A DNA stretch of 64,000 bases from a virus: IMG/VR virus record IMGVR_UViG_3300045988_154953, one strand, 5' to 3'. Below are positions 42,267-61,269 of the stretch, in pieces (position 1 is the stretch's first letter; the number at the start of each line of letters is the position of its first letter). The notes under the pieces are model-generated. The model was given only the letters and a program-made list of their open reading frames with translations. It searched no databases and had not been told where the DNA came from. The position numbers were made by a program, and so were the translations under genes.

Positions 42267-44867
42267 ATGAATGGATTAAACAAAAATGAGGTTCTTGAAA
42301 GTAGAAGAACTTATGGAAGTAATAAGCTTCCAGAACCTAAAATGAAGAAATGGTATGATTTTGCTATACAAGCATTAACAGAAAAAATTACATTAATTTT
42401 AATCGCAATTGCAGTTTTACAGTTAGTTCTTGGAATAATTGGAGTTTCGGAAATTTCAACTCCAATTATGATTATTATCGTACTTGCAATCGTAACAATA
42501 CTTGGTATAAAAACAAATCTTGGAGTACAAAGATCAGCTGCCGAATTACGAGCGAGAACAGCAACCAGATATTGTGATGTAATTCGTAATGGAGAACTTC
42601 AAACAATAAATAAAGATGAACTAGTAGTTGGTGATCTTGTATGTGTGAGAATGGGACAAGAAATATTTGCAGATGGTTATTTGATTGAAGGTAAAATTTC
42701 AGTAAATAACGCTGCTATTAATGGTGAAACAAAAGAATGTAAGAAAACACCAATTGAAGGATACAAACATATAAAAACAACATCTACAGATGCTTATACA
42801 AATCAAAACTGTTTATTCGCAGGAACTACAGTTATGGCCGGTGAAGGTAAAATGATTGTTACAGATGTTGGTGTTAATACTATAAATGGTGATACACTTG
42901 TTAAAATGCAGACTCTTGAAGCACCTAAAACAGCTCTTGATATTGCACTTGATAATTTATGTGATTTTATCTCAAAATGGGGTACAATTGCAGCATTTGT
43001 AGCATTTGTTATTCTCATGATAACTAGTGTCATGCAAGTTGGTTTTGTGGAATATTTTAGTGGTGATATTCTTGATATTATTCATAAAATTGCATTGAAT
43101 TTTTCTGTAGCAGTAACAATTATTGTAGCTGCTGTACCAGAGGGTCTTCCAATGATTGTCAAGCTTGTTACAAAACAGAATGTTAATACAATGGAAAAAT
43201 TTAATATTCTTGCAAAAAATCCTGGAAAGATTCCAGAACTTGCTTATGTTGATATCATTTGCACAGATAAAACTGGTACATTAACAACAGGAATTATGAC
43301 ACCAAAGAAAATCATTGATGGATATGGAAATGAAGTTGATCAGAAATCAATTCTTTGGAGTAATATTAAAGATAATATTTGTTTAAATAATAGTGCTGCG
43401 TTTGATTCAGATGATAATATTACAGGCGGGAATTCAATTGACAGAGCACTTCTTGGACTGGTTTCTTCGGAACAATATAATGAAATCATTAACAGATATT
43501 CTGTTAAATTAAAACAGGTATTTAGTAGTGAAAATAAGTATTCTGCATTTACATGTTCTGATGGAGTTACATATTATAAAGGTGCTCCAGAAAAACTTAT
43601 TGACTCATGTACATCAGTTTTAAATTCTGGAGTAGAAATATTTTCTGATAACAACAAAAAGAAATTATATGAACATATTAAGGAAATGACAGAAAAGTCA
43701 ATGAGATGTATTGCTTTAACAATGAGTAATGAAGATTTGGTTGAAAATCAGCTTCCAAATAATATGACGTTTCTTGGTGTTATTGGAGTAGTAGATCCTG
43801 TAAGAGATGAAGTACCTGATGCTGTTAAAACAGCTCATGAAGCGGGTATACAGGTAATTGAAATTACAGGTGATTGTCTTGAAACAGCGAAAGCAGTTGC
43901 TGCGGAATGTGGAATTTACAAAAACGGTGATCTTGCCATTACAAATGATGAGTTTGAAAAAATGTCTGATGATGAAGTTAAATTAATCATTCCTAGATTG
44001 AGAGTTATTTCAAGATGTTCACCAAATACAAAATTAAGACTTGTAACTATTGCTCAAGAAGTAGGAAAATCAGTTGCCATGACAGGTGATGGAGTTAATG
44101 ATTCACCAGCATTAAAGAAAGCAGACGTTGGTTTTGGAATGCAAAGCGGATCTGATGTAGCAAAAGAAGCATCAGACATTATATTGACAGATGATAATTT
44201 TGCAAGTGTTGTAAAAGCAGTCGAACTTGGCAGAACATTCATGCACAATATTATGATGTTCCTTGAGTTTCAGCTCCCTATTAATATTTCACTTTTAATT
44301 TTGAGCGTAATTTATCCTATCATTGCGACAGGTGCATTACTTGCTTCTGTTCAAATTCTGATAATTAATATTATCATGGATTCTTTGAATTCATTATCAT
44401 TTGGTGGTGAGCCACCGAAAGAAGAATATATGCTAGAGAAACCTATTAAAAAAGGATCTGGACTTTTTATTAGAGGAGCAAAGAAACGAATTGCTGTTAG
44501 TACGATCACGTTTATTGTTTTATATGCGATTATTACATTTACTCCAATTAAGAATATGTTTTCGTCAGAAACAGAAGCTATGACCGCAAGATTTGCATTA
44601 CTTTGTTTTATGGCTGTGTTCAATGGGTTTAATATCCGTACAGAACATATGAATTTATTTAAAGGAATCGGAAAGAATAAGTTGTTTTTATATATTGCAA
44701 TTGGAATTTTTGTAATGACGATTGTTTTATGTAATGTTGTAGGATCATTCATTAAAGTGACTCAGTTGGATTCAATACATTGGTTAACAATTATTGCATT
44801 ATCATTTATTGTTATTCCAGTTGATCTTATCAGAAAGGTAATCGACCGTAAAACTAAGGAGGCATAA
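42267..44867 (+). CDS. P-type cation-transporting ATPase (type II, Ca2+-ATPase-like)
   Basis: ICTDKTGTLTTG phosphorylation site, ITGD, MTGDGVNDSPALKKADVG hinge, N- and C-terminal TM bundles. Confidence 0.85.
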   Translation: MNGLNKNEVLESRRTYGSNKLPEPKMKKWYDFAIQALTEKITLILIAIAVLQLVLGIIGVSEISTPIMIIIVLAIVTILGIKTNLGVQRSAAELRARTATRYCDVIRNGELQTINKDELVVGDLVCVRMGQEIFADGYLIEGKISVNNAAINGETKECKKTPIEGYKHIKTTSTDAYTNQNCLFAGTTVMAGEGKMIVTDVGVNTINGDTLVKMQTLEAPKTALDIALDNLCDFISKWGTIAAFVAFVILMITSVMQVGFVEYFSGDILDIIHKIALNFSVAVTIIVAAVPEGLPMIVKLVTKQNVNTMEKFNILAKNPGKIPELAYVDIICTDKTGTLTTGIMTPKKIIDGYGNEVDQKSILWSNIKDNICLNNSAAFDSDDNITGGNSIDRALLGLVSSEQYNEIINRYSVKLKQVFSSENKYSAFTCSDGVTYYKGAPEKLIDSCTSVLNSGVEIFSDNNKKKLYEHIKEMTEKSMRCIALTMSNEDLVENQLPNNMTFLGVIGVVDPVRDEVPDAVKTAHEAGIQVIEITGDCLETAKAVAAECGIYKNGDLAITNDEFEKMSDDEVKLIIPRLRVISRCSPNTKLRLVTIAQEVGKSVAMTGDGVNDSPALKKADVGFGMQSGSDVAKEASDIILTDDNFASVVKAVELGRTFMHNIMMFLEFQLPINISLLILSVIYPIIATGALLASVQILIINIIMDSLNSLSFGGEPPKEEYMLEKPIKKGSGLFIRGAKKRIAVSTITFIVLYAIITFTPIKNMFSSETEAMTARFALLCFMAVFNGFNIRTEHMNLFKGIGKNKLFLYIAIGIFVMTIVLCNVVGSFIKVTQLDSIHWLTIIALSFIVIPVDLIRKVIDRKTKEA

Positions 44868-44868
44868 A

Positions 44869-45645
44869 ATGGGATTATTTGGTAAATTATTCAAAGGGAA
44901 CAAAGTTGATACGAAAGAAAATGAAGCTATACTAAAAAATAGCACAGTTAGTCAAAACGTGATTGACATGTCTAAGTCATCAGAAAACTTAAATAAAGTT
45001 CTGATCAATATGTCTAAAACCGGAAAAATTGATATGACAAAACATGTTGCACGAGTTGCACTTGCTATGGATTATTCTGGCAGTATGTATAATTTGTATG
45101 ACAATGGATCTGTACAGAATGTTATCACAAGACTTCTTCCTATCGCATTGAAATTCGATGATAATGGTGAACTTGAAGCTTGGTTGTTTTCTAATGGTAA
45201 AGAAAGACTTGCTGCAGTAACAACTGAAAATTATAAAAACTATGTAAAAAAAGTAATGATGAAGTCAGGAATGAGAATGGGCGGTACAAATTATGCGCCT
45301 GTATTGGAAGATATGGTGATGTATTATAAAGATATTGAACCAAGCACTGTTCCAGCATTTATCATTTTTATTACAGACGGAGAAAATTTCGACACCGATG
45401 AAACGAATAGAATTATAAAAGAGTTATCAAACTATAATATTTTTATTCAATTTATTGGTATTGGTAATGAAGATTTTAAATACCTTAAATCCTTAGATAA
45501 CATGAAAGGTAGAAAACATGATAATACAGGGTTTACAGCTGTAGAGGATATGAACAAAATGACAGACGAAGAGTTGTACACAGAAATACTTAGACAGTAT
45601 AGTGCTTGGTATGAACGTAGTAAAGGAGTAAATAAATATGAGTAA
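44869..45645 (+). CDS. vWA domain protein of the TerF-C-terminal/TerY type
   Basis: MIDAS LAMDYSGSM, FITDGE; directly upstream of the TerD gene. Confidence 0.6.
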   Translation: MGLFGKLFKGNKVDTKENEAILKNSTVSQNVIDMSKSSENLNKVLINMSKTGKIDMTKHVARVALAMDYSGSMYNLYDNGSVQNVITRLLPIALKFDDNGELEAWLFSNGKERLAAVTTENYKNYVKKVMMKSGMRMGGTNYAPVLEDMVMYYKDIEPSTVPAFIIFITDGENFDTDETNRIIKELSNYNIFIQFIGIGNEDFKYLKSLDNMKGRKHDNTGFTAVEDMNKMTDEELYTEILRQYSAWYERSKGVNKYE

Positions 45646-46276
45646 TGTAATTAATATGAGTAAGAATCAGAAAATTAATATGACTAAAGATAATGGTGAG
45701 GCAATTAAGAATTTCTTCATTGGTGTAAATTGGGATCAAAATAGATATGCTGGAGAAGCAGATATTGATTTTGATATCAATGGTTTCTTAACAAATTCTG
45801 ACAGAAAAGTAATATACCCAAAAGATATTGTTAATTATAATACATATAATAGCAACGATTATCCATGGGTTGAATATTCCGGTGATAATTTAACAGGTGA
45901 TAATTCTATAGGTATTACATTTGATGGAAAGCATTATGATGAGTATTTTATTGTACACGCTGATTTATTTCCAAATGATAGAACAGATTTTACTATTTGC
46001 TTAACAATTTATAGAGCGGTTCAAAGATTGCAGAATTTTGGTATGATAAGCAATGCTTCAATGATGATTTGTGATTATGATGATCCAAGTGATAAAAAAT
46101 GGGAGTTTAACCTTTCTGAAGATGAAAAATTTGAAAATTTAAATGCTGTAGAAATAGGAAGACTTTATCGTTACGGTAACGGATTTAAATTTCAAGCACT
46201 TGGATCAGGATATGTCGGTGGAATGACAGAGCTGTTCAAAAACTTTGGATTAGATATTGATGAAGGTAGGGATTGA
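45638..46276 (+). CDS. terD: TerD-family (Ca-binding stress) protein
   Basis: INMSKNQKINMTKD...FIGVNWD...ADIDFDINGFL follows the TerD beta-sandwich pattern; overlaps the upstream gene by 8 nt. Confidence 0.6.
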   Translation: MSNVINMSKNQKINMTKDNGEAIKNFFIGVNWDQNRYAGEADIDFDINGFLTNSDRKVIYPKDIVNYNTYNSNDYPWVEYSGDNLTGDNSIGITFDGKHYDEYFIVHADLFPNDRTDFTICLTIYRAVQRLQNFGMISNASMMICDYDDPSDKKWEFNLSEDEKFENLNAVEIGRLYRYGNGFKFQALGSGYVGGMTELFKNFGLDIDEGRD

Positions 46277-46279
46277 TAG

Positions 46280-47011
46280 GTGGCTGCAATTATAATTGTT
46301 ATTACCATTATTATAGTTGGTGTATTATTTTTCACAAAGACAGGCAAAAGATTGAGACTTAGAGCGTCAGGCACAGCAGAAGAAATGATAACAAAAGATG
46401 CTGCAACACCAAATGGAGCTAAAGCACACTATAATGCCGTTATTTCAAAAAAAGAAGAAGAATATCAGAACGTAAACAAATTTTATACTGAAACGCTTGG
46501 AAACATTAAATTCTATGAAACACAATTGCGTTCATTGCAAAAAGAAAATATGCAGTTAAACCTTAATATTAATAATTGTGTTGAGAAAAACGATGATAAT
46601 GGTGCTAAAGTATATTTAGGTCGTCAACAAGAAGTAAATGATAAGATTGATATTATCAAAAATACTTTAGTTGAATTACGAAGAAATTCTGAGCTTCAAA
46701 AGGAAAATTTAGATACATTATATGAAAATATTAATAATTTAAAGTCCGAAAAGGAAACTTCAGTTTTGACTCTTGAAGCAGCTGAGATAACAAAATCATT
46801 AAAATCCGCTCCTGGTGTTTATTCGCAAGAAGAAGATAAAATGCTTGAAAAAGTACGCGATGGAGTAAAGAAAGCTAAGAAAGAAGCAGATGGCGTTAGT
46901 ATCGCTTATGAAAATTCAATGGATGTTCAACAGAAACGTCTTGATAAGAAAATGAAAGATGACGAAGTTAATAGAAAGCTTAAACAACTAAAAGATGCTA
47001 AGAAAAAATAA
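46280..47011 (+). CDS. membrane-anchored PspA/IM30-like coiled-coil protein
   Basis: N-terminal TM helix, then long heptad-rich region with a VEKNDDNGAKVYLGRQQE segment like PspA 'AL..G.EDLAR.AL'; GTG start. Confidence 0.45.
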   Translation: MAAIIIVITIIIVGVLFFTKTGKRLRLRASGTAEEMITKDAATPNGAKAHYNAVISKKEEEYQNVNKFYTETLGNIKFYETQLRSLQKENMQLNLNINNCVEKNDDNGAKVYLGRQQEVNDKIDIIKNTLVELRRNSELQKENLDTLYENINNLKSEKETSVLTLEAAEITKSLKSAPGVYSQEEDKMLEKVRDGVKKAKKEADGVSIAYENSMDVQQKRLDKKMKDDEVNRKLKQLKDAKKK

Positions 47012-47027
47012 ACTAATCAATTTAACA
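47010..47027 (+). repeat. 18-nt boundary motif copy R11
   Basis: AAACTAATCAATTTAACA; overlaps the upstream TAA. Confidence 0.75.
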
Positions 47028-47034
47028 AAAAATA

Positions 47035-47066
47035 TTGACAGAAAATAATATATATGATATTATAAT
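47035..47066 (+). promoter_or_regulatory. strong sigmaA-type promoter of the RNA array
   Basis: TTGACA (47035-47040), 17 nt, TATTAT (47058-47063); an overlapping TATAAT at 47061-47066. Confidence 0.65.
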
Positions 47067-47096
47067 CATGTCAGCAAGGATAGTTTTTGTAAAATT

Positions 47097-47114
47097 AAAC
47101 TAATCAATATAATT
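47097..47114 (+). repeat. 18-nt boundary motif copy R12
   Basis: AAACTAATCAATATAATT; followed by the hairpin CAAATGG/CCATTTG. Confidence 0.8.
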
Positions 47115-47144
47115 TCCAAATGGTTTAAAATTTCCATTTGTTGA

Positions 47145-47232
47145 AAGAATCTGGTGTACGGAGCACGATAAATTGTTTTATTTAATTATAAAATAATTTG
47201 TAAGAAATAAGTTCAATTCTTATTGATTCTTC
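47145..47232 (+). ncRNA. tRNA-like RNA T0 (long 12-bp hairpin in place of the anticodon arm)
   Basis: acceptor AAGAATC/GATTCTT, D arm TG-GTGT-ACGGA-GCAC, T arm ATAAG-TTCAATT-CTTAT, central AAATTGTTTTAT-TTAATT-ATAAAATAATTT. Confidence 0.45.
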
Positions 47233-47354
47233 TTTGGCTTGCTGAAGCCAATCTCATACTTTTCATTCCATATCTTCTTTATAAGCTCTGATCCAGTTTT
47301 GAAGAATACATTGGAAGATGTTCACTTACTCATCTATAAAAAAGTAAGTAATAT

Positions 47355-47437
47355 AGGAGTGTGGTGAAATTGGATAGACACCCCAGATTTTGATTCTGGT
47401 GTCGCAAGACGTGTGGGTTCGAGTCCCACCACTCCCG
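47355..47437 (+). tRNA. class II (long variable arm) tRNA, apparent anticodon UUG
   Basis: acceptor AGGAGTG/CACTCCC (A1:C72 mismatch), 3-bp D stem GTG/CAC with GG loop, AC arm CCAGA-TTTTGAT-TCTGG, variable arm TGTCGCAAGACGT, T arm GTGGG-TTCGAGT-CCCAC, G73; no encoded CCA. Confidence 0.7.
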
Positions 47438-47636
47438 CTATGAACAAACTCCGAAGTACAAGGATAGTAGTTCAGAATGGATCCATAAAACAATTAAAAC
47501 ATCAAAAATACGCTGTTTTATTTCTTTATATTTAAATCTCGGTTTGGAGTTTGTAAGAAACAGTCTTTAGGTTACGTTAATATCTAGAAAACTTACCGGA
47601 GTTCGGCACTCTGGAGTGGATGTCTACCACTCAAGT

Positions 47637-47706
47637 TGCACTGCTAATGGATTAGCTGCTAAGTAGTCATTGGCCATGCAGAAAGGTTCGATTCCTTTCA
47701 GTGCAA
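47637..47706 (+). ncRNA. tRNA-like RNA T2 (irregular D/anticodon region)
   Basis: acceptor TGCACTG/CAGTGCA and T arm AAAGG-TTCGATT-CCTTT are perfect. The best anticodon arm is GCTAA-GTAGTCA-TTGGC (AGU, C37), which is non-standard. Confidence 0.4.
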
Positions 47707-47963
47707 TTAAATTCTTTATTTCAGAGAAGTGAATAATCAGCATTAGGCTTAACACAAATGATAAGCATAAACTTGTTGCCAAGTGATTCTTGTAAAAAGA
47801 TTATAGAGTAAACTATTAAAAATCCTGCAAATAATCTCGTAGATCAGAGATTATCAGATATCTAGTCAATAAAAGGCGTTCACGACATCTGACAGAGAAT
47901 ATTAATTATTATGAAATGTATAAAATTAATGCGGATCATTTGCTTAGAATCATGATTCAGGTT

Positions 47964-48026
47964 TGTTCATTGGTGTAAAGGTGCATATCAGAAATGATGG
48001 TTCTGGTTCGACTCCAGAATGAACAA
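47964..48026 (+). ncRNA. tRNA-like RNA T3, only 63 nt, no pairable anticodon stem
   Basis: acceptor TGTTCAT/ATGAACA, D arm TG-GTGT-AAAGGT-GCAT, T arm TCTGG-TTCGACT-CCAGA; only 15 nt between the D and T arms. Confidence 0.45.
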
Positions 48027-48126
48027 TTATCTCATAAGTAGAAATGAGATGTGAGGACGCTATCCAAAATATAAGAAATAGTAAGCTTATGGATTGCTTG
48101 TACAAATATGCTGAAAATCCACACTT

Positions 48127-48200
48127 AGGAAATTAGCTCAGTTGGTGAGAGCGGCGGCCTTATAAGCCGTGTGTGCTGGGTTCAAGTCCCAGATTTCCTA
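48127..48200 (+). tRNA. tRNA-Ile (anticodon UAU)
   Basis: AGGAAAT-TA-GCTC-AGTTGGTGA-GAGC-G-GCGGC-CTTATAA-GCCGT-GTGTG-CTGGG-TTCAAGT-CCCAG-ATTTCCT-A; anticodon 48161-48163; no encoded CCA. Confidence 0.85.
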
Positions 48201-48387
48201 TTCAATATAAAATAAGTATAAATGAACCATATAAAATATTCATATGTCATTCACTCCTGTTTTTACATACAATCTTTTTGGTTCATTAAATTCTATTTTG
48301 TATTTAGGCGATTTCTGCAATTCAAAGAAATTATAAAGTTATAATTAGACTTAAAATCTAATCGATAAAATTATATCGTCTAGTAAT

Positions 48388-48456
48388 GGCTTCATGGCGT
48401 AAAGGTTAGCGCAATAATCTAGTAATGAGGATCTGGTTCGAATCCAGATGAAGCCA
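48388..48456 (+). ncRNA. tRNA-like RNA T5, 69 nt, no pairable anticodon stem
   Basis: acceptor GGCTTCA/TGAAGCC, D arm TG-GCGT-AAAGGTTA-GCGC, T arm TCTGG-TTCGAAT-CCAGA. The centre AATAATCTAGTAATGAGGA cannot form a 5-bp stem; paralog of T3. Confidence 0.45.
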
Positions 48457-48504
48457 GCAGTATTTATTACTGTAATTCTTTTATATACCCTCCAATACAA
48501 CAGA

Positions 48505-48558
48505 TAGACACTAACAGCAATTTTTACATATGGTATTAAAAATATTTATGGTGTCTAG
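48505..48558 (+). ncRNA. ACAGCAA-module RNA S1 (stand-alone)
   Basis: TAGACAC-TA-ACAGCAA-[TTTTTACATA tgg TATTAAAAA hairpin]-TATTTATG-GTGTCTA-G. Confidence 0.6.
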
Positions 48559-48564
48559 AATATG

Positions 48565-48682
48565 GAAGACGTAGGGAAGTGGCCAAACCCAACAAAGAAT
48601 AGTGGTTAGCTACTTAATCGCTTACAGCAAAGTTAATTGTAAAACAGGCAAGTTTTCGTGAGTTCGAATCTCACCGTCTTCC
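48565..48682 (+). ncRNA. tRNA body T6 (class II-like) with the ACAGCAA module in the anticodon position
   Basis: acceptor GAAGACG/CGTCTTC, D GGG-AAGTGGCCAAA-CCC, ACAA...TTGT flanks 41 nt containing CTT-ACAGCAA, variable arm AAAAC-AGGCAA-GTTTT, T arm GTGAG-TTCGAAT-CTCAC. Confidence 0.55.
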
Positions 48683-48688
48683 AAACCT

Positions 48689-48811
48689 CGTCAGATAGTT
48701 TCAATTGGTAAAACACTGCTTAAATCAAATGTGATTAGTTAATTAATCACTAACAGCAATATTCTTATGATGGGCCTGGCAGAACTATAGGTTCGAATCC
48801 TATTCTGGCGA
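48689..48811 (+). ncRNA. tRNA body T7 with a 57-nt insert replacing the anticodon loop
   Basis: CGTCAGA-TA-GTTT-CAATTGGTA-AAAC-A-CTGCT[57 nt: ...GTGATTA-gttaat-TAATCAC-TA-ACAGCAA...]GGCAG-AACT-ATAGG-TTCGAAT-CCTAT-TCTGGCG-A. Confidence 0.6.
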
Positions 48812-48813
48812 TT

Positions 48814-48871
48814 TAGACGGATACAGCAATTTAATGGATAAGACTTTTAATCTTAATACCAAGCCGTCTAG
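48814..48871 (+). ncRNA. ACAGCAA-module RNA S2 (stand-alone)
   Basis: TAGACGG-AT-ACAGCAA-[34 nt with a TAAGA/TCTTA hairpin]-CCGTCTA-G; starts 2 nt after T7. Confidence 0.6.
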
Positions 48872-48877
48872 TATATG

Positions 48878-48992
48878 AGGAATATAGCTCAGTTGGTAGA
48901 GCATCGGACAATACAAAAAAGAGTCTAGTTATAGACTTGAACAGCAAATTATAAAACTCTGACTGTCGTTGGTTCGAATCCAACTATTCCTC
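48878..48992 (+). ncRNA. tRNA body T8 with a 49-nt insert replacing the anticodon loop
   Basis: AGGAATA-TA-GCTC-AGTTGGTA-GAGC-A-TCGGA[49 nt: ...GAGTCTA-gtta-TAGACTT-GA-ACAGCAA...]TCTGA-CTGTC-GTTGG-TTCGAAT-CCAAC-TATTCCT-C. Confidence 0.6.
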
Positions 48993-48994
48993 AT

Positions 48995-49060
48995 TAGGTG
49001 CAATTACAGCAAAAAGAAAAGCGTATAATTTGGGATTATAATAGCAAAAACTGCACCTAG
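48995..49060 (+). ncRNA. ACAGCAA-module RNA S3 (stand-alone)
   Basis: TAGGTGCA-ATT-ACAGCAA-[TATAAT ttggg ATTATA hairpin]-TGCACCTA-G; starts 2 nt after T8. Confidence 0.6.
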
Positions 49061-49066
49061 TTTGTC

Positions 49067-49193
49067 AAGTGGGTAGCTCAGTGGTAGAGCACGATAATAA
49101 GATAATGTGTCGAGTACTTTAGTGACACTTACAGCAATTTTTCTTTTTTGCATTTTAAGCACGATGTCGTAGGTTCGAGTCCTGCCCCACTTG
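49067..49193 (+). ncRNA. tRNA body T9 with the ACAGCAA module inserted between the D arm and the variable loop
   Basis: AAGTGGG-TA-GCTC-AGTGGTA-GAGC...GTGTC-(12)-GACAC-TT-ACAGCAA...ATGTC-GTAGG-TTCGAGT-CCTGC-CCCACTT-G. 8-nt direct repeat AGCACGAT at 49088 and 49158; a possible weak UUU arm TTTGC-ATTTTAA-GCACG. Confidence 0.55.
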
Positions 49194-49196
49194 TTT

Positions 49197-49269
49197 TAGA
49201 TGATAACAGCAATTCACGAAAATATAAACACATTTATTAAACAAGTATAAAAGTTATAAAATCATCTAG
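49197..49269 (+). ncRNA. ACAGCAA-module RNA S4 (stand-alone)
   Basis: TAGATGA-TA-ACAGCAA-[49 nt]-TCATCTA-G; starts 3 nt after T9. Confidence 0.6.
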
Positions 49270-49276
49270 CGATTAT

Positions 49277-49335
49277 AAGACAGTTACAGCAACACTATTA
49301 TATAAAAGACTTAAAATTTAAAACAAAACTGTCTT
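49277..49335 (+). ncRNA. ACAGCAA-module RNA S5 (stand-alone)
   Basis: AAGACAGTT-ACAGCAA-[34 nt]-AACTGTCTT (9-bp perfect closing helix). Confidence 0.55.
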
Positions 49336-49341
49336 GGAATC

Positions 49342-49359
49342 AAAGTAACTTTACAACAA
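49342..49359 (+). promoter_or_regulatory. module-like leader element of the vWA gene
   Basis: AAAG-TAA-CTTT mini-hairpin followed directly by ACAACAA; about 10 nt upstream of the AAAGGAGA RBS. Confidence 0.35.
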
Positions 49360-49384
49360 TTTTGGTTCAAAGGAGAATAAATTT

Positions 49385-50938
49385 ATGTTTATGAACGATT
49401 TAAAAGAAACGTTAAATGAAGATTTTAATGAATCTATCACCGAAAATAATGCCAATGGTTATAGAACAACAGGAAAAGAACTGTTGGATATGAACTTTAT
49501 GGTATCTTCGATGAGAAAAATGAGTGATAAACAAATTATTGATAAATTTGTAAAAGCTTTCTATGAAAATAAAATGTATGCAATTAAATGGTTGTATTAC
49601 GTAAGGGATGCTCGTGAGGGAGTTGGCGAGAGAAGATTGTTCAGAGTTTGTATGGAATATCTTGCAAAGAATCATACAGACATTGCAAAAGCCATGATCC
49701 CTTTGACAGCTGAATATGGTCGTTGGGATGACTTATTATCTTTACTTGATACAGAATTAGCTGACAATGTTATTAAATTATTTGGTGATCAGCTTACTGA
49801 AGATATGAAAAACTTGAAATCAAATAAACCTATTTCATTATTAGGTAAATGGATGCCTAGCTGCAATGCATCATCTAGAAAAACTAGAAAACTGGGTGTA
49901 GAGATTGCGGAAAAGCTTGGTATTTCTGAAAGGAAGTATAGAAAGATGCTTTCTGCCATCAGAAAATATCTTGACGTTGTAGAAGTTAAAATGGCTGCAG
50001 GACAATGGGATCAGATTGATTATTCAAAAGTTTCCTCAAGAGCTAATTTAATTTATAATAACGCTTTTCTGAGACATGATGAAGAACGTAGACGTAAATA
50101 CCTTGAAAGCTTGCAAAAAGGCGAAACAAAGATTAATGCCGGTGTATTATTTCCACATGATATTGTACATAAGTATTATAACTTAGATTATTGGCGTATC
50201 AATATTAAAAATTATGATACAGCACTTGAAGAAATGTGGAAGGCATTACCAGATTATGTGAATGGTGCTGGTAATACAATTTGTGTTGCTGATGGGTCTG
50301 GAAGTATGTACACAAGAGTAGGTGGCACAAATGTAATGGCGATTGAAGTAGCAAATGCTTTAGCAATTTATTTTTCCGAAAGATGCTCTGGACAGTTTAA
50401 GGATAATTATATAACCTTTAGTATGAATCCGAAACTTGTTAGTTTTAGTAGAGCTAAATCTTTAAAAGAGAAAATAGAAATTGCTTTAAAACACACCGAA
50501 TGTGCTAATACGAATATTGAAGCCGTATTTGATTTGATTCTTAAAACAGCAATTAGAAAAAATATGAAACAGGATGAATTACCGCAGAATATATTGATTT
50601 TATCGGACATGGAGTTCGATAGTTGTGTTGAATACAATAGAAGTAGCAGATGTAATCTCAATAGACCTACCAAAAGATTATTTAAAGTATTTGAAGAAAG
50701 ATATGCTGAACATGGCTATAAACTTCCAAGATTAGTATTTTGGAATATTTGTAGTAGAACTGGTACAATTCCTGTAAAAGAAAATGATTTAGGTGTAGCA
50801 CTTGTAAGTGGTTTCAGTCCGGCAGTTGTTAAGATGGTACTTAGTAATAGTACAGATCCACTTGAATGTTTACTTGAACAGTTGAATTCAGAAAGATATC
50901 AGCCGGTAGAAGATGCAATCAAGGATTTAGTTGCTTAA
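49385..50938 (+). CDS. large helical N-domain + C-terminal vWA/MIDAS protein (DUF2828-like; Ro60/TROVE-like layout)
   Basis: 517 aa; about 290 aa of predicted helical repeats (YGRWDDLLSLL, GKWMPS, LFPHDIV), then MIDAS CVADGSGSM and LILSDMEFD. Family name is from memory, not searched. Confidence 0.6.
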   Translation: MFMNDLKETLNEDFNESITENNANGYRTTGKELLDMNFMVSSMRKMSDKQIIDKFVKAFYENKMYAIKWLYYVRDAREGVGERRLFRVCMEYLAKNHTDIAKAMIPLTAEYGRWDDLLSLLDTELADNVIKLFGDQLTEDMKNLKSNKPISLLGKWMPSCNASSRKTRKLGVEIAEKLGISERKYRKMLSAIRKYLDVVEVKMAAGQWDQIDYSKVSSRANLIYNNAFLRHDEERRRKYLESLQKGETKINAGVLFPHDIVHKYYNLDYWRINIKNYDTALEEMWKALPDYVNGAGNTICVADGSGSMYTRVGGTNVMAIEVANALAIYFSERCSGQFKDNYITFSMNPKLVSFSRAKSLKEKIEIALKHTECANTNIEAVFDLILKTAIRKNMKQDELPQNILILSDMEFDSCVEYNRSSRCNLNRPTKRLFKVFEERYAEHGYKLPRLVFWNICSRTGTIPVKENDLGVALVSGFSPAVVKMVLSNSTDPLECLLEQLNSERYQPVEDAIKDLVA

Positions 50939-50944
50939 AAAGAA

Positions 50945-51010
50945 TAGATACGCACAGCAATTAAGAAGTTTGGTTTAGGTTCACATCCTTTTTCAAATAT
51001 TTGTATCTAG
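50945..51010 (+). ncRNA. ACAGCAA-module RNA S7 (stand-alone, 3' of the vWA gene)
   Basis: TAGATAC-GC-ACAGCAA-[42 nt incl. T-loop-like AGG-TTCACAT-CCT]-GTATCTA-G. Confidence 0.55.
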
Positions 51011-57985: not shown

Positions 57986-58354
57986 TTGAGTTGTAAGTAT
58001 CCAGAAAATAGTAGAAGTTATATGTTTTGTATTGGATGTAAAGAAGCAGATTCTTGTTCAAGTTCAACATTCAACATTCCAATGCCAGATAATGTAAAGC
58101 CACCAAAAAATTCTATTCCAACAGCTGCTGAAGCAAAAAATGTAACTGAGTTGGCTATAGAGAATTCTATCACCAAACAATTAGAAGAATTATCATTTAA
58201 AATAAATACAGCAATTCATAAAGGAAAATATGACATTACAAACGATGGTATTTTGGATCTAGAAGTAAAAAGAAGATTAGAAGATCTCGGTTATAATATT
58301 ACAATTGGGAATCAATATAACGAATCATATTATACGATTAGTTGGAAAGGATGA
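57986..58354 (+). CDS. hypothetical protein
   Basis: TTG start behind GAGGTGAG. Confidence 0.55.
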   Translation: MSCKYPENSRSYMFCIGCKEADSCSSSTFNIPMPDNVKPPKNSIPTAAEAKNVTELAIENSITKQLEELSFKINTAIHKGKYDITNDGILDLEVKRRLEDLGYNITIGNQYNESYYTISWKG

Positions 58355-59054: not shown

Positions 59055-60386
59055 ATGGAGGCTATGAACTGGAACCCGGTATTAAGCAAGTTTGTAGAAA
59101 TTAAAAATGAATTCAAAAAGAAACTTGGATATATAACTTACTATTATACTGAAGGTTACACAAACGAATCTCAAACTTGTTTAGAAAGATGGGTAGAATA
59201 TTTAAATGGTATTAAGCCGTTTAATCAATATCAAGAGTATGCAGATTTGCTTTCATGTCTTGAATTAAATCAATATGGAGATTTTCTTCTTTTAAGATAT
59301 GGAAGATATAGTAACATTTATGATGGTGAAATTGAAAAGTCTGGTGAGGATTTTTGGGATAGATATGAGGGTTTTTACAGAGAATGTAGAAGTATAGTAA
59401 TTGATGTAAAAAATGATTGTATTGTACTTTGCCCATTTCGCAAATTTTTTAATCTAAATGAGTTAGAAGAAACTAGTGAAGAAAACATTAATAAAAGAAT
59501 TGAGAACGCATCACTTATAGAATTTTCAAATAAATTAGATGGATCGATGCAAACAGCTACATGGTACGATGGTAAAATTATTATGGCTGGAAGTCAAGCA
59601 ATAAATCCAGAAAAATCGTGGAGATTACAGGATGGATACAGAATGATTCAAGCGTTGCCTGGATATGAGCAAATGCTTAAAATGCATCCTAACTTTACAT
59701 TTATATTTGAATATATCTCTTTGGCCGATGCTCATGTAGTAAAATATAAAAAAGAGCAAGAAGGTCTATATCTTATTGGTATTAGAGATAATTTAACAGG
59801 ACATGAACTTAGTTATCGTAAGGTGATAGATATTGCTAATCATTTTAATATTCCAACAACGGTATTATTTGATAAAACACTTGGACAAATCTTAAATGAA
59901 TTAGATAACAAAAGTTCAGAAGAAGCAGAAGGCTTTGTTATTAACATTGATGAATATAAAGTTAAAGTGAAATATAATGATTATGTACATATTCATAAAG
60001 CACTGTCTAAACTCTCTTCAATAAATCTTATTATTCGTTCTATTGCAGATGATCAGTACGATGATCTCTTATCTAAACTTCCAGCAGCTTATCATGATAG
60101 TGTAAAAAAAGTAGCTGCTATCGTATTCAGATATATAAAAGATACAGAACGAACTTCTAACGAATATTTTCAGCAAGCTCCAAAAACTAGTCAAAAAGAA
60201 TTCATGATCTGGATTGATAGAAATGTTCCTAAAAAGTTCCGTGGATTTTGTAGGGAATTGTATTTTGGAAACGAAATTAATGTAATTAAATTCAATCAAT
60301 CTGGAGATCCAAAATATTTAAAATTAAATCAAATGGGAGTAAATGATTACTCTACATTATTCACACAGGAGGAAGAAAATGAGTAA
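59055..60386 (+). CDS. ATP-dependent RNA ligase (Rnl1/T4 RnlA-like nucleotidyltransferase)
   Basis: motif I FSNKLDGSM (KxDG), motif IV EGFVINI, motif V KVKVKYNDY; 443 aa. Confidence 0.65.
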   Translation: MEAMNWNPVLSKFVEIKNEFKKKLGYITYYYTEGYTNESQTCLERWVEYLNGIKPFNQYQEYADLLSCLELNQYGDFLLLRYGRYSNIYDGEIEKSGEDFWDRYEGFYRECRSIVIDVKNDCIVLCPFRKFFNLNELEETSEENINKRIENASLIEFSNKLDGSMQTATWYDGKIIMAGSQAINPEKSWRLQDGYRMIQALPGYEQMLKMHPNFTFIFEYISLADAHVVKYKKEQEGLYLIGIRDNLTGHELSYRKVIDIANHFNIPTTVLFDKTLGQILNELDNKSSEEAEGFVINIDEYKVKVKYNDYVHIHKALSKLSSINLIIRSIADDQYDDLLSKLPAAYHDSVKKVAAIVFRYIKDTERTSNEYFQQAPKTSQKEFMIWIDRNVPKKFRGFCRELYFGNEINVIKFNQSGDPKYLKLNQMGVNDYSTLFTQEEENE

Positions 60387-61269
60387 ACCTATACTTTGGG
60401 TTATGGTAGGACTTTCGGGAAGCGGTAAGTCAACGATTGCTAAAAAAATTGCTGCTGATAATCCTAATACACTAATAATATCGTCAGATAATATTCGTGA
60501 AGAAATAACCGGTGATTATGAAGACCAGGAACATAACGCAGAAGTATTTAATATTTTTCATGATAGAATTCTCAAGAATCTTGAAAATAAACAGAACGTC
60601 GTAGCCGATGCTACAAATCTTACAATAAAATCCCGTAGATCAATTTTGAATAAAGTGAATGGATTAGATATTGAGAAAATATGTGTTATTATTCCAAAAC
60701 CATTTGAAAAGTGTAAAGAAGATAATTTACATAGAGAGCATCCTGTACCAGAAGATGTATTAAATAAACAGCTCAGAAGATTTCAAGTACCATTTAAAGA
60801 AGAAGGGTGGAATGAAATTAAAATCCATTATTTACAAAAAGATGGATATGAACCAAATGAGATTCGTTTCTTAGATATGGAAAGTTTTGATCAGAAGAAC
60901 CCGCATCATACTATGGATTTACTTGAGCATTGTACACATGCAACAGACATGTTTATCGAAAAACACAAATATTCGCCAGAATTTATAATTGGTGCTTTAT
61001 ATCATGATATTGGTAAGCTGTACACACAAACATTTGATGAAAACGGTATAGCTCATTACTACCAGCATCATGCGGTCGGTTCATATTTGTATTTTACTAG
61101 TATGTATCCAATAGGGAATCCTGTATTAGATACATGTTTTCTTATCAACTATCATATGATGCCATTTAGTTGGGAAAGCGATAAGTCAAAGAAAAAGTGG
61201 AAAAAGATATTTGGTAATTATAAATATCAAATGCTTTTAGATTTTAATGAATGTGACAAGGCGAGATAG
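60379..61269 (+). CDS. P-loop polynucleotide kinase fused to an HD phosphohydrolase domain
   Basis: ATG 60379 overlaps the ligase stop; Walker A GLSGSGKST; C-terminal H...HDIGK (ALYHDIGKL) and YQHH. Confidence 0.65.
   Translation: MSKPILWVMVGLSGSGKSTIAKKIAADNPNTLIISSDNIREEITGDYEDQEHNAEVFNIFHDRILKNLENKQNVVADATNLTIKSRRSILNKVNGLDIEKICVIIPKPFEKCKEDNLHREHPVPEDVLNKQLRRFQVPFKEEGWNEIKIHYLQKDGYEPNEIRFLDMESFDQKNPHHTMDLLEHCTHATDMFIEKHKYSPEFIIGALYHDIGKLYTQTFDENGIAHYYQHHAVGSYLYFTSMYPIGNPVLDTCFLINYHMMPFSWESDKSKKKWKKIFGNYKYQMLLDFNECDKAR

What the first reader, a model, noticed from the sequence alone, without database searches (positions are those of the whole stretch)
48565..49193. Four tRNA bodies carry the ACAGCAA module where the anticodon loop should be, in a circularly permuted topology
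T6-T9 have clean acceptor, D and T arms with canonical GG and TTCGA(A/G)T loops.
- T7 and T8 also have good anticodon stems (CTGCT/GGCAG and TCGGA/TCTGA), but these enclose 57 and 49 nt instead of 7.
- T6 encloses 41 nt.
- T9 carries the insert between the D arm and the variable loop, flanked by an 8-nt direct repeat AGCACGAT (49088, 49158).

Each insert is a local hairpin followed by NN-ACAGCAA. In T8 the hairpin is GAGTCTAG-tta-TAGACTT. That is the 3' end (..GTCTAG) and the 5' end (TAGAC..) of a stand-alone unit joined by a short loop.

I could not find any simple excision that regenerates a 7-nt loop with U33 and a purine at position 37. These therefore do not look like ordinary intron-containing tRNAs. 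The inserts are also far too short for group I or II introns.

Competing readings:
(a) tRNA scaffolds that display the module, a mirror image of bacterial YrlA-type Y RNAs, which combine a protein-binding stem with a tRNA-like domain;
(b) a novel protein-dependent mini-intron that needs the phage RNA ligase and kinase/HD;
(c) a small mobile element that targets anticodon loops.
Basis: partly seen in the sequence, partly recalled or inferred. Interest (0 to 1): 0.85.

Follow-up and report, generated by a model that had tools for sequence, protein, structure and literature searches.

The report
tRNA-embedded partner RNAs of phage Ro60-like protein
Four tRNA-shaped RNAs and six small hairpin RNAs next to a phage gene for a Ro60-like protein all carry one conserved module (a helix followed by ACAGCAA), which looks like an undescribed and very widespread relative of the Ro60/Y-RNA particle.

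Summary
T6-T9 are genuine tRNA bodies. Each carries a hairpin plus NN-ACAGCAA, a circular permutation of the stand-alone units between them.

The module does not replace the anticodon loop. It sits just 5' of it. T9 and 20 relatives keep a complete anticodon arm, with the insert in the 5' strand of the stem. T8 keeps a U33/A37-type heptamer. Simple excisions that restore a 7-nt loop do exist.

The array lies directly upstream of a DUF2828+vWA gene on the same strand. The predicted fold of that protein matches Ro60. The helix+ACAGCAA module accompanies DUF2828 genes in 68 of 70 related loci. It also does so in Felix O1, Listeria LP-125, Campylobacter NCTC12673 and mycobacteriophage Kingsolomon. 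In Kingsolomon one module carries a YrlA-like permuted tRNA domain.

About 60% of the best-scoring stand-alone units (73 of 121) contain an anticodon stem-loop mimic.

Best reading: these are Y-RNA-like ligands of a Ro60-like phage protein that tether it to tRNA or anticodon-arm shapes. A protein-dependent intron is not excluded. A mobile element is unsupported. Binding and function are inferred, not shown. I found nothing matching in Rfam 15 or the searched literature.

The parts
47035..47063 (+). Best sigma-70-like promoter (TTGACA-17-TATTAT with an extended -10 TG), at the head of the tRNA/ncRNA array. It probably drives the array and the Ro60-like gene.
   Evidence: 11 of 12 hexamer matches. 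No terminator-like site lies inside the module array. Co-transcription is inferred.
48505..48557 (+). Stand-alone unit S1: helix P1 formed by the two ends (TAGACACTA/TGGTGTCTA), with ACAGCAA at 48514-48520.
   Evidence: (model R1, 46.1 bits, E 1e-10)
48564..48683 (+). T6: class-II (Tyr-like) tRNA body. Module hairpin at 48601-48622, ACAGCAA at 48624-48630, anticodon-like TTGTAAA at 48637-48643.
   Evidence: (ARAGORN at relaxed threshold). The L002/L009 homologue has a perfect GTA anticodon arm 3' of the module.
48689..48811 (+). T7: tRNA body. Anticodon stem at 48716-48720/48778-48782, module hairpin at 48731-48750, ACAGCAA at 48753-48759. The loop segment (ATGGGCC-like) is non-canonical.
48813..48871 (+). 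Stand-alone unit S2: P1 TTAGACGG/CCGTCTAG, ACAGCAA at 48823-48829, and an inner anticodon-arm mimic TAAGA-CTTTTAA-TCTTA (Lys-UUU-like).
   Evidence: 64.8 bits, E 4e-16; the minimum-energy fold equals the consensus
48878..48992 (+). T8: tRNA body. Anticodon stem at 48904-48908/48958-48962, module hairpin at 48921-48938, ACAGCAA at 48941-48947, heptamer ATAAAAC at 48951-48957 directly before the 3' strand.
   Evidence: (tRNA model, 51.8 bits). The anticodon stem covaries with the L007 orthologue (TCGGA/TCTGA against TTTGG/CCAAG).
48993..49061 (+). Stand-alone unit S3: 10-bp P1, ACAGCAA at 49006-49012, inner hairpin TATAA-TTTGGGA-TTATA (Pro-UGG-like with G37).
   Evidence: (39.1 bits)
49067..49193 (+). 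T9: Asn/Lys-type tRNA body with an intact but split anticodon arm. Nucleotides 27-28 are at 49092-49093, the insert is 49094-49148 (hairpin 49107-49128, ACAGCAA 49131-49137), and TGC-ATTTTAA-GCA-CG is at 49149-49163.
   Evidence: 43 bits; 21-member family: 95.6% of cells paired, covariation score 0.57 against 0.17 in shuffles
49196..49271 (+). Stand-alone unit S4: P1 TTAGATGAT/ATCATCTAG, ACAGCAA at 49206-49212.
   Evidence: (19.9 bits, E 0.006)
49276..49336 (+). Stand-alone unit S5: P1 TAAGACAGTT/AACTGTCTTG, ACAGCAA at 49286-49292.
   Evidence: (50.2 bits)
49337..49368 (+). Conserved 5'-UTR hairpin (GAATCAAAG...TTTTGGTTC) just before the ribosome-binding site AAGGAG (49370-49375). Its loop holds an ACAACAA variant.
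   Evidence: Read directly. It is present in L002 and L007 with a compensating change. Function not tested.
49385..50938 (+). Gene for a 517-aa DUF2828 + DUF7788(vWA) protein with a predicted Ro60 (TROVE ring + vWA) fold and an intact MIDAS motif (D303, S305, S307, T376, D408).
   Evidence: pLDDT 87, pTM 0.86; top 6 PDB matches are all Ro60/TROVE, E 7e-8 to 4e-5
50945..51009 (+). Stand-alone unit S6, directly after the stop codon of the Ro60-like gene. ACAGCAA at 50954-50960.
   Evidence: 31.6 bits, E 2e-6
59055..61269 (+). Context only: T4 Rnl1-type RNA ligase (59055-60386) and a P-loop polynucleotide kinase (60343-61269). These are the classic enzymes for repairing cleaved anticodon loops.

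Best explanation
T6-T9 are tRNA-derived non-coding RNAs. Each carries the recognition module of the phage's own Ro60-like protein, the DUF2828+vWA gene at 49385-50938. The module is a short helix (P1) followed on its 3' side by two variable bases and the single-stranded heptamer ACAGCAA.

In the six stand-alone units, P1 is formed by the two RNA ends and encloses a variable hairpin. In about 60% of the best-scoring family members (73 of 121 distinct model hits) that hairpin mimics an anticodon stem-loop. In T6-T9 the same module is circularly permuted. P1 is closed by a loop, and the 'variable domain' is a whole tRNA body with its normal acceptor ends. The insert sits just 5' of the anticodon: inside the 5' strand of the anticodon stem in T9, and at the 5' edge of the loop in T8.

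The whole array is probably transcribed with the protein gene from the promoter at 47035 and cut into units, partly by tRNA-processing enzymes.

By analogy with Ro60/Y RNA and the tRNA-like YrlA, the protein would bind P1+ACAGCAA. The tRNA or anticodon-arm part would then dock the particle onto, or act as a decoy for, proteins that recognise tRNAs.

Shown here: motif invariance, covarying helices, strict linkage and shared strand with the gene across very distant phages, and the predicted Ro60 fold of the protein. Inferred: physical binding, processing and the cellular role.
For: 1. Protein. The AlphaFold model (pLDDT 87) has Ro60/TROVE structures as its six best PDB matches over about 550 columns. 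The best is the Thermus phage phiLo Ro60, 9KOP. Nine of 46 homologues weakly hit Pfam vWA_Ro60, and the PHROG name is 'RNA-binding protein'.

2. Linkage.
- In 70 loci with 3-kb flanks, ACAGCAA occurs 382 times upstream on the gene strand and 14 times on the other strand. 77% of the gene-strand upstream copies have a P1 helix, against 23% of random positions. 68 of 70 loci have a structured module.
- All 204 hits of the covariance model R1 (E<=1e-3) are on the gene strand.
- In 845 kb of unrelated viral DNA, 20 of 21 hits fall in the 7 stretches that encode a DUF2828 homologue.

3. Reach. Modules flank the DUF2828 gene in phages absent from the training set: Felix O1, Listeria LP-125, Campylobacter NCTC12673 and mycobacteriophage Kingsolomon. 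A 37%-identical homologue (L001) has a single module in its 5' UTR. Hosts this different argue that a phage-encoded factor, not a host factor, reads the motif.

4. Structure. For the stand-alone units, P1 is 98.7% paired and all 7 pairs covary. The anticodon-like stem is 88.5% paired. For the T9 family, the cloverleaf, the split anticodon stem and the module hairpin are 95.6% paired.

5. Link to Y RNAs. Kingsolomon L212:4544-4671 is P1 + ACAGCAA + a permuted T arm, closed acceptor stem and D arm. It scores 37.9 bits on Rfam YrlA. Canonical phage Ro60 likewise has upstream Y-like RNAs with a conserved motif in a bulge next to the 5'-3' stem (PMC12135203).

6. ACAGCAA is invariant in 118 of 121 distinct model hits.
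Against: - No binding, expression or processing data exist for any of these RNAs.
- Sequence-only comparison of the protein with solved structures finds no Ro60, so homology rests on a predicted fold.
- The RNAs lack the YrlA/Y-RNA motif GNCGAA and get no Y_RNA or YrlA hit in the window, even at E<=5.
- The T9 family keeps a flawless anticodon arm, family-specific anticodon triplets persist (GCC, GUU, GGG), and an RNA ligase and kinase are encoded nearby. All of this fits a splicing model equally well.
- In T8-type RNAs the anticodon heptamer is not a closed 7-nt loop unless the insert is removed, so 'display of an anticodon loop' fits them poorly.
- The alignment used for the anticodon-arm statistics (A3) was hand-picked for visible loops.
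Confidence: 0.6

Rival explanations
1. The inserts are a new kind of protein-dependent mini-intron. A nuclease excises hairpin+ACAGCAA, and the phage Rnl1 ligase and kinase reseal the anticodon arm to give working tRNAs. The Ro60-like protein acts as a chaperone or specificity factor.
For: - Precise removal of 49094-49148 from T9 gives a canonical 5-bp stem with a 7-nt loop. The same holds for all 21 family members.
- ARAGORN finds U33/R37-restoring excisions for T7-T9.
- Family-specific anticodon triplets and encoded CCA ends persist.
- An Rnl1-type ligase and a polynucleotide kinase lie 8 kb downstream. RtcB lies near the homologous gene in Listeria LP-125.
Against: - The same module occurs in many more stand-alone units that contain no tRNA body. 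In Felix O1, LP-125 and NCTC12673 the modules detected were all stand-alone units, lying next to uninterrupted tRNAs.
- The insertion point varies (26/27, 28/29, 31/32).
- Many Gly-type members would give A33 rather than the near-universal U33, with no consistent U on either flank.
- Close orthologues differ in the restored anticodon: T8 gives AAA against UAC in L007, and T9 gives UUU against GUU.
- Bulge-helix-bulge-like geometry is not enriched over shuffles.
- No group I or II intron hit was found, and 42-57 nt is far too short.
- No candidate endonuclease was identified.
Confidence: 0.12
2. The helix+ACAGCAA units are only cis-acting elements. They would be processing or spacer signals for maturing the tRNA array, or operators through which the protein represses its own mRNA. 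They would have no role as stable partner RNAs.
For: - The units lie between tRNAs, and one usually sits directly before the gene's ribosome-binding site or in its 5' UTR (L001).
- The outer base pairs of P1 are conserved (AAGRC/GYCTT), as expected for a cleavage signal.
Against: - Up to 11 or more copies occur per locus, some after the stop codon, and some on the opposite strand beside the gene in L093.
- Elaborate and diverse inner domains (anticodon-arm mimics, whole tRNA bodies, a YrlA-like domain) are maintained by covariation. A spacer or operator does not need these.
Confidence: 0.1
3. The module is a small mobile element that inserts into anticodon arms of tRNA genes.
For: - The module is found at slightly different positions of the anticodon arm in different tRNA families.
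- The L002 T6 homologue has AGAGA on both sides of the insert.
Against: - None of 193 distinct ordinary tRNAs in the same loci is an uninterrupted twin of any of the 111 embedded ones (best normalised score 0.64).
- Each tRNA family keeps its insert at the same site across phages whose Ro60-like proteins are only about 50-60% identical to the window's.
- The T9 'direct repeat' is a stem palindrome.
- All copies are on one strand and confined to the neighbourhood of one gene.
Confidence: 0.03

Closest known systems
YrlA-type bacterial and phage Y RNAs with Ro60/Rsr (Rfam RF02553; Chen et al. 2014, PMC4201824)
   Same: - Small RNAs are encoded beside, and on the same strand as, a ring-shaped Ro60-fold protein with a vWA domain.
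- A helix carries a conserved purine-rich motif on its 5' strand.
- The second domain mimics tRNA (T arm, D arm, acceptor stem).
- Several RNAs occur per locus.
- One family member (Kingsolomon, L212:4544-4671) has exactly the YrlA topology and hits the YrlA model at 37.9 bits.
   Different: - The protein belongs to Pfam DUF2828/DUF7788, not TROVE.
- The motif is ACAGCAA rather than GNCGAAN0-1G.
- No window RNA reaches any score on the YrlA or Y_RNA models.
- In T6-T9 the tRNA part is not permuted. It has real acceptor ends and keeps the anticodon segment, and the protein-binding helix is the closed element.
- Most units carry only an anticodon-arm mimic or another hairpin.
- Arrays are longer, with up to about 10 or more copies.
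Thermus phage phiLo Ro60 with Yrl1/Yrl2 (PDB 9KOP; PMC12135203)
   Same: - It is the best structural match of the window protein.
- It is phage-encoded.
- Two Y-like RNA genes lie directly upstream of the gene, each with a 5'-3' stem next to a bulge holding a short conserved motif.
   Different: - Its motif is the canonical CGAA.
- No tRNA bodies or anticodon-arm mimics are reported.
- Only two RNAs are present.
- Binding was demonstrated experimentally there and not here.
Intron-containing tRNA genes (archaeal bulge-helix-bulge introns, bacterial group I introns in anticodon loops)
   Same: A tRNA gene is interrupted in the anticodon arm, and precise removal would restore a normal arm in the T9 family and in T8.
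   Different: - The insert lies 5' of the anticodon rather than at 37/38.
- There is no bulge-helix-bulge enrichment and no group I/II signature.
- The same element exists free-standing without a tRNA.
T4 tRNA repair (PrrC anticodon nuclease countered by Pnkp and Rnl1) and RtcB/Rsr/YrlA RNA-repair operons
   Same: - The window encodes an Rnl1-type ligase and a polynucleotide kinase.
- Listeria LP-125 has RtcB 1.3 kb from its DUF2828 gene.
- The commonest anticodon-arm mimic is Lys-UUU-like, and tRNA-Lys(UUU) is the PrrC target (my own knowledge).
   Different: No link between the Ro60-like particle and repair or nuclease evasion has been tested. The co-occurrence was not examined systematically.

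Membership tests
tRNA (Rfam RF00005) | Cloverleaf with acceptor, D and T arms, scoring above the family threshold. | tested here: met
   T8 scores 51.8 bits and T9 43 bits against a threshold of 29. T7-T9 are called by ARAGORN with its intron option, and T6 at a relaxed threshold. Acceptor and T arms covary in the T9 family.
tRNA (functional decoder) | Uninterrupted 5-bp anticodon stem closing a 7-nt loop with U33 and a purine at 37. | tested here: not met
   All four carry a 42-57-nt insert in the arm. ARAGORN without the intron option finds none of them. Many relatives have A33.
YrlA / Y RNA | Encoded within a few kb of a Ro60-type protein gene and on the same strand. | tested here: met
   The array ends 49 nt before the gene. 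The protein has a predicted Ro60 fold. All 204 model hits are on the gene strand. Caveat: the protein is in Pfam DUF2828, not TROVE.
YrlA / Y RNA | GNCGAAN0-1G (bacterial) or GGUCCGA-type motif on the 5' strand of the terminal stem. | tested here: not met
   The invariant motif is ACAGCAA in 118 of 121 distinct hits.
YrlA / Y RNA | Match to the Rfam covariance models RF02553 or RF00019. | tested here: not met
   No hit in window 46900-49500 even at E<=5. Only the Kingsolomon relative gives a sub-threshold YrlA hit (37.9 bits against 69).
YrlA / Y RNA | RNA ends lie in the protein-binding stem, and the tRNA-like domain is permuted with a closed acceptor stem. | tested here: not met
   In T6-T9 the ends are at the acceptor stem and the binding helix is closed by a loop. 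The stand-alone units do have their ends in the stem.
YrlA / Y RNA | Physical association with the Ro60-type protein. | not testable with these tools
   Needs immunoprecipitation or gel-shift assays.
Ro60 / TROVE proteins (for the neighbouring gene) | HEAT-repeat ring plus a C-terminal vWA domain with a MIDAS motif. | tested here: met
   Foldseek top 6 are 9kop, 9nf8_A, 9nep_A, 1yvr, 1yvp_B and 9nen, each with probability 1.00 and TM 0.41-0.57. D303, S305, S307, T376 and D408 are invariant. This rests on a predicted structure only.
Ro60 / TROVE proteins (for the neighbouring gene) | Sequence-level match to Pfam TROVE or to solved Ro60 chains. | tested here: not met
   A profile search of PDB sequences finds no Ro60. 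Pfam gives DUF2828 and DUF7788, with vWA_Ro60 only weakly in 9 of 46 homologues.
Archaeal-type tRNA intron | Bulge-helix-bulge motif bracketing the insert. | tested here: not met
   Candidate counts (6, 4, 1, 8) are no higher than in shuffles (3.4, 4.6, 2.3, 7.7), and none brackets the module consistently. This was a crude pattern test.
Group I / II intron | Ribozyme core of at least about 200 nt. | tested here: not met
   Inserts are 42-57 nt, and no intron family was hit at E<=5.
Mobile insertion element (MITE-like) | Empty sites in relatives, target-site duplication and scattered copies. | tested here: not met
   No empty-site twins were found. The apparent repeat in T9 is a stem palindrome. 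Copies are confined to one strand beside one gene.

The most novel reading that the evidence does not exclude
The Ro60-like protein and its ACAGCAA RNAs form a phage counter-defence particle. It would present mimics of anticodon arms, either free or in full tRNA bodies with the loop opened just 5' of the anticodon. These would act as decoys or docking sites for host anticodon nucleases or tRNA-modifying enzymes, working alongside the phage's Rnl1/kinase or RtcB repair enzymes. The repertoire of mimicked anticodons in each array (Lys-UUU, Pro-UGG, Ser-UGA, Asn-GUU, Cys-GCA, Tyr-GUA, Gly-GCC and others) would then record which host tRNAs are under attack.
Probability: 0.2. Interest if true: 0.9.

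Novelty: new variant of a known kind. Interest (0 to 1): 0.78.

Why it matters
- **Scale.** DUF2828 'RNA-binding proteins' are found in at least 710 GenBank phage records. These include laboratory workhorses such as Felix O1, KVP40, Listeria P100-like phages, Campylobacter phages and cluster L mycobacteriophages. Thousands more occur in metagenomes. None has an assigned partner or role.
- **Testability.** If the helix+ACAGCAA RNAs are their ligands, the Ro60/Y-RNA type of particle is far more common in phages than the few canonical cases suggest. It also becomes directly testable in tractable phage-host pairs.
- **RNA biology.** The family shows one protein-binding module joined to tRNA shapes in both circular permutations, and to bare anticodon-arm mimics. 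This points to tRNA-directed biology (repair, nuclease evasion or modification) rather than general RNA quality control.
- **Annotation.** These 'intron-containing' or 'undetermined' tRNA calls in phage genomes should not be counted as decoding tRNAs. The RNA family is missing from Rfam 15.

Tried and rejected
- ARAGORN with default settings and Rfam at gathering thresholds missed T6, T7 and all modules.
- Nucleotide BLAST of the array against GenBank phages found only generic tRNA similarity.
- A first protein-based scan of viral contigs with a single sequence returned one locus. That locus happened to be decisive.
- A collection scan for three spaced ACAGCAA copies mostly returned coding Gln/Thr/Ala repeats. 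It is useless as a reverse test of association. I reused those stretches as a negative-control set for the covariance model.
- A profile search of PDB sequences found no Ro60. Only the structure route worked.
- My automatic assignment of the 'anticodon heptamer' in all 111 embedded tRNAs mis-handled split-stem and class-II cases. I rely on the curated T9-family alignment and on inspection for the others.
- Literature searches for DUF2828, for ACAGCAA with phage, and for Ro-like/TROVE with phage tRNA found no description of these RNAs. The library lacks most subscription journals, so an earlier description cannot be excluded.
- Promoter or terminator readings of the module were rejected. P1 covaries, and the motif is identical in phages of Mycobacterium, Campylobacter, Listeria, Salmonella and Clostridia.
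Full report
**1. What is in the sequence**

Window 47035-51009 is a one-strand array of tRNA genes and small structured units around one protein gene.

ACAGCAA occurs nine times between 48514 and 49292, always on the + strand. A tenth copy lies at 50954, just after the gene. The whole window has 16 copies on both strands against 8.4 expected.

A pairing scan sorts the ten copies into two topologies.
- **Stand-alone units (six):** 48505-48557, 48813-48871, 48993-49061, 49196-49271, 49276-49336 and 50945-51009. The strand just 5' of ACAGCAA pairs with a strand 30-60 nt downstream.
- **Embedded units (four), inside T6-T9:** the same strand pairs with a strand just upstream and forms a closed hairpin.

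The order 'partner strand, GRCAC-like strand, two bases, ACAGCAA' is the same in both.

**2. The tRNA bodies are real**

- The Rfam tRNA model hits T8 (51.8 bits) and T9 (43 bits), with inserts of 48 and 68 nt.
- ARAGORN finds none of the four by default. With introns allowed it finds T7, T8 and T9, and T6 at a relaxed threshold.
- Single-sequence folds recover the acceptor stem and module hairpin in all four, the D arm in T8 and T9, and the T arm in T6 and T8. The z-scores are modest, -1 to -3.
- The strong evidence is comparative (section 5).

**3. The neighbouring gene encodes a Ro60-like protein**

ORF 49385-50938 matches Pfam DUF2828 and DUF7788, with a weak vWA hit.

A profile search against PDB sequences finds nothing relevant. 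An AlphaFold model built from 46 homologues is confident (pLDDT 87, pTM 0.86). Its six best Foldseek matches in the PDB are all Ro60/TROVE structures, aligned over about 550 columns with E from 7e-8 to 4e-5. The top match is the Ro60 of Thermus phage phiLo, 9KOP.

The vWA metal site (D303, S305, S307, T376, D408) and many basic residues of the N-terminal ring are invariant. Nine of 46 homologues weakly hit Pfam vWA_Ro60. PHROG 850 names the family 'RNA-binding protein'.

**4. The module travels with this gene family**

- A homologue only 37% identical (L001) has one unit, GCGCACT-A-ACAGCAA...AGTGCGC, in its 5' UTR.
- Closer relatives (75-79% identical) have 9-11 copies upstream and up to 4 downstream, all on the gene strand.
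- In 70 viral loci with full 3-kb flanks, ACAGCAA occurs 382 times upstream on the gene strand and 14 times on the other strand. 77% of the gene-strand upstream copies have a P1 helix, against 23% of random positions. 68 of 70 loci hold at least one structured unit.
- A covariance model of the stand-alone unit (R1) gives 204 hits at E<=1e-3 in 710 kb. Every hit is on the gene strand.
- In 845 kb of unrelated viral stretches, 20 of 21 hits fall in the seven stretches that encode a DUF2828 homologue. The other hit is at the very end of a stretch.
- The model finds units in cultured phages that were not used to build it:
  - Felix O1: three units (a fourth ACAGCAA copy is visible by eye), within the tRNA array that follows the gene, some directly between annotated tRNAs.
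  - Listeria LP-125: two units upstream of the gene.
  - Campylobacter NCTC12673: two units between tRNA-Tyr and the gene.
  - Mycobacteriophage Kingsolomon: two units downstream of its 'Ro-like RNA binding protein'.
- ACAGCAA itself is unchanged in 118 of 121 distinct hits.

The motif is identical in phages of Mycobacterium, Campylobacter, Listeria, Salmonella and gut Clostridia. That argues for a phage-encoded reader, and the one gene that is always adjacent is the obvious candidate. This last step is an inference.

**5.

*Stand-alone units.* In an alignment of 45 units, P1 is 98.7% paired and all seven pairs covary. An inner 5-bp stem closing a 7-nt loop is 88.5% paired and all five pairs covary. 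Sliding the partner columns drops pairing to 33-47%. That alignment was hand-picked for visible loops.

The less biased figures are these.
- 241 of 439 modules have a 7-nt loop with T at position 2 and a purine at position 6, on a stem of at least 4 bp, within 45 nt downstream. Shuffles give 58. The count includes T loops of embedded tRNAs. The loop start peaks 14-18 nt after the motif.
- 73 of 121 distinct model hits have such a loop. The model itself was built from the hand-picked set, so this figure is not fully independent.

The loops read like anticodon loops: CTTTTAA (Lys), TTTGGGA (Pro, with G37), CTTGAAA, CTGTTAA (Asn), CTGCAAA (Cys) and CTGTAAA (Tyr). In the window, S2 carries TAAGA-CTTTTAA-TCTTA and S3 carries TATAA-TTTGGGA-TTATA.

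*Embedded units.* I collected 111 distinct tRNA bodies with an internal ACAGCAA.

A 21-member family that includes T9 aligns cleanly. It supports the following elements, with 95.6% of cells paired and a covariation score of 0.57 against 0.17 in shuffles:
- a cloverleaf;
- the module hairpin;
- a complete but split anticodon arm. The two outer pairs (27-43, 28-42) bracket the insert and covary (CG/GC to AU/CG). Three inner pairs close a 7-nt loop, mostly CTGTTAA.

In T9 the arm reads CG(49092-93)[49094-49148]TGC-ATTTTAA-GCA-CG. The module is thus a 55-nt bulge in the 5' strand of the anticodon stem. The 'AGCACGAT direct repeat' is the palindromic stem next to the D stem.

In T8 the 5' strand (48904-08) and 3' strand (48958-62) enclose the insert plus the heptamer ATAAAAC. 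The L007 orthologue has ATTACAC, and its stem covaries.

Gly-like, Pro-like and Tyr-like families keep GCC, GGG/UGG and GUA triplets just before the 3' strand. Many have A rather than U at position 33.

The general rule is that the module is inserted just 5' of the anticodon. It does not replace it.

**6. The link to known Y RNAs**

Canonical Ro60 binds Y RNAs through a terminal stem with a conserved motif. Bacterial YrlA adds a permuted tRNA-like domain and the motif GNCGAAN0-1G (PMC4201824). Phage phiLo Ro60 has two Y-like genes directly upstream of its own gene (PMC12135203).

No window RNA hits the Y_RNA or YrlA models, even at E<=5.

In Kingsolomon, however, L212:4544-4671 has this layout:
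- P1 (TGGACCCC/GGGGTCCA);
- ACAGCAA (4553-59);
- then a T arm, a closed acceptor stem and a D arm.

That layout is the YrlA topology, and it scores 37.9 bits on RF02553 (threshold 69; E 6e-7 in a search of that 391-nt stretch, 6e-5 across the five phage loci). It is flanked by two ordinary stand-alone units, one with a CTGCTAA loop.

The same module is therefore joined to a tRNA shape in both circular permutations within one family. T6-T9 are the unpermuted-tRNA version.

**7. How it most likely works (confidence about 0.6)**

- The array and the gene are probably one transcript from the promoter-like site at 47035-47063. No terminator-like site lies inside the module array (inferred).
- The tRNA bodies would be released by RNase P and RNase Z. 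How the stand-alone units are released is unknown.
- The Ro60-like protein would bind P1 plus the single-stranded ACAGCAA. This geometry, a helix followed by a 3' single strand, recalls how Ro60 holds RNA on its outer surface and in its cavity (my own knowledge of the Ro60 structures).
- The variable domain (an anticodon-arm mimic, another hairpin or a full tRNA body) would be the effector end. In the same way, Y RNA loops tether Ro60 to other proteins (PMC4201824).
- The unit next to the ribosome-binding site could also allow autoregulation. This is speculative.

The window also encodes an Rnl1-type RNA ligase and a polynucleotide kinase. LP-125 has RtcB 1.3 kb from its homologue. Ro60-type proteins have been proposed as platforms for RNA repair in jumbo phages (PMC7824862). 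A role in the conflict over anticodon loops is thus plausible but untested.

**8. Rival explanations**

*Protein-dependent intron (about 0.12).* Excision would restore perfect arms in the T9 family and in T8, and ligase and kinase genes are present. Against this:
- the module is far more often free-standing;
- the insertion point varies;
- many members cannot regain U33;
- close orthologues would regain different anticodons;
- bulge-helix-bulge geometry is not enriched;
- no endonuclease is apparent.

*Purely cis-acting processing or operator element (about 0.1).* This does not explain the elaborate, covarying inner domains or the high copy numbers.

*Mobile element (about 0.03).* No empty-site twins exist among 193 ordinary tRNAs. 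Insert positions are fixed within families across diverged phages, and all copies sit on one strand beside one gene.

*Chance.* Excluded by sections 1 and 4.

**9. Novelty**

Nothing in Rfam 15 matches the module. Full-text searches found no description of an RNA partner for DUF2828 proteins. The library omits most subscription journals, so this is not proof of absence.

I rate this a new variant of a known kind, the Ro60/Y-RNA particle. The differences are:
- a new protein branch;
- a new recognition motif;
- long arrays;
- anticodon-arm mimics;
- tRNA chimeras in the opposite permutation to YrlA.

The closest relatives of the window's protein in genome assemblies are in Lachnospiraceae and other Clostridia. 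This suggests a gut Firmicutes host.

Noticed in passing
window 47355-47438: A class-II tRNA (long variable arm, with BLAST neighbours annotated tRNA-Leu) has the anticodon loop TTTTGAT, that is anticodon UUG (Gln codon CAA). The same gene is in L007:1886-1965. A Leu-type body reading a Gln codon would be unusual.
   Followed up: no
window 48388-48456; L007:2971-3035: T5 is a 69-nt tRNA-like RNA (44.8 bits) whose anticodon stem does not pair. The RNA at the corresponding position in L007 has ACAGCAA directly abutting the D stem, with no hairpin and no anticodon arm. That is a minimal form of the chimera. In the window the motif has decayed to AGCGCAA.
   Followed up: partly
window 47146-47232, 47590-47710, 47943-48025: Further irregular tRNA-like sequences lie upstream of the module array. 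They have T-arm-like GGTTCGA motifs, and ARAGORN returns 'tRNA-???'. None carries ACAGCAA.
   Followed up: no
window 49337-49368: A conserved hairpin (GAATCAAAG...TTTTGGTTC) sits immediately before the ribosome-binding site of the Ro60-like gene. Its loop contains ACAACAA. It is present with a compensating change in L002 and L007, and could be a translational control element.
   Followed up: partly
window 29502-30596 and 37421-38128: Two TnpB-like ORFs (OrfB_IS605 + Cas12f1-like TNB domain) lie near a RepA_N protein, a tyrosine integrase and a DndB-like protein.
   Followed up: no
window 42267-47011: Immediately upstream of the array lie a P-type cation ATPase, a vWA-TerF-like protein, a TerD protein and a PspA/IM30-like protein. 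This is a tellurite-resistance-type stress module in a phage.
   Followed up: no
L210:1977-2528 (Listeria phage LP-125): A sub-threshold but strong ROOL RNA hit (87.4 bits against a threshold of 99.1, E 2e-16) lies among the tRNA genes about 1 kb upstream of the DUF2828 gene and its ACAGCAA units.
   Followed up: no
L212:4544-4671 (mycobacteriophage Kingsolomon): A YrlA-like RNA (37.9 bits on RF02553) has a terminal stem that carries ACAGCAA instead of GNCGAA. It is flanked by two stand-alone units, downstream of the gene annotated 'Ro-like RNA binding protein'.
   Followed up: yes
L093:11479-11594 (giant-virus MAG contig): Two model hits (E about 1e-6) lie next to a DUF2828 homologue that is only 25% identical. 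Here they are on the opposite strand from the gene.
   Followed up: partly
window 58199-58254: A weak model hit (18.4 bits, E 0.018) with an ACAGCAA at 58208 lies inside ORF 57986-58354. It is probably chance.
   Followed up: no
L070, L085: Two DUF2828 loci (50-53% identical) have no ACAGCAA and no model hit within 3 kb. They may use a variant motif or encode the RNAs elsewhere.
   Followed up: no
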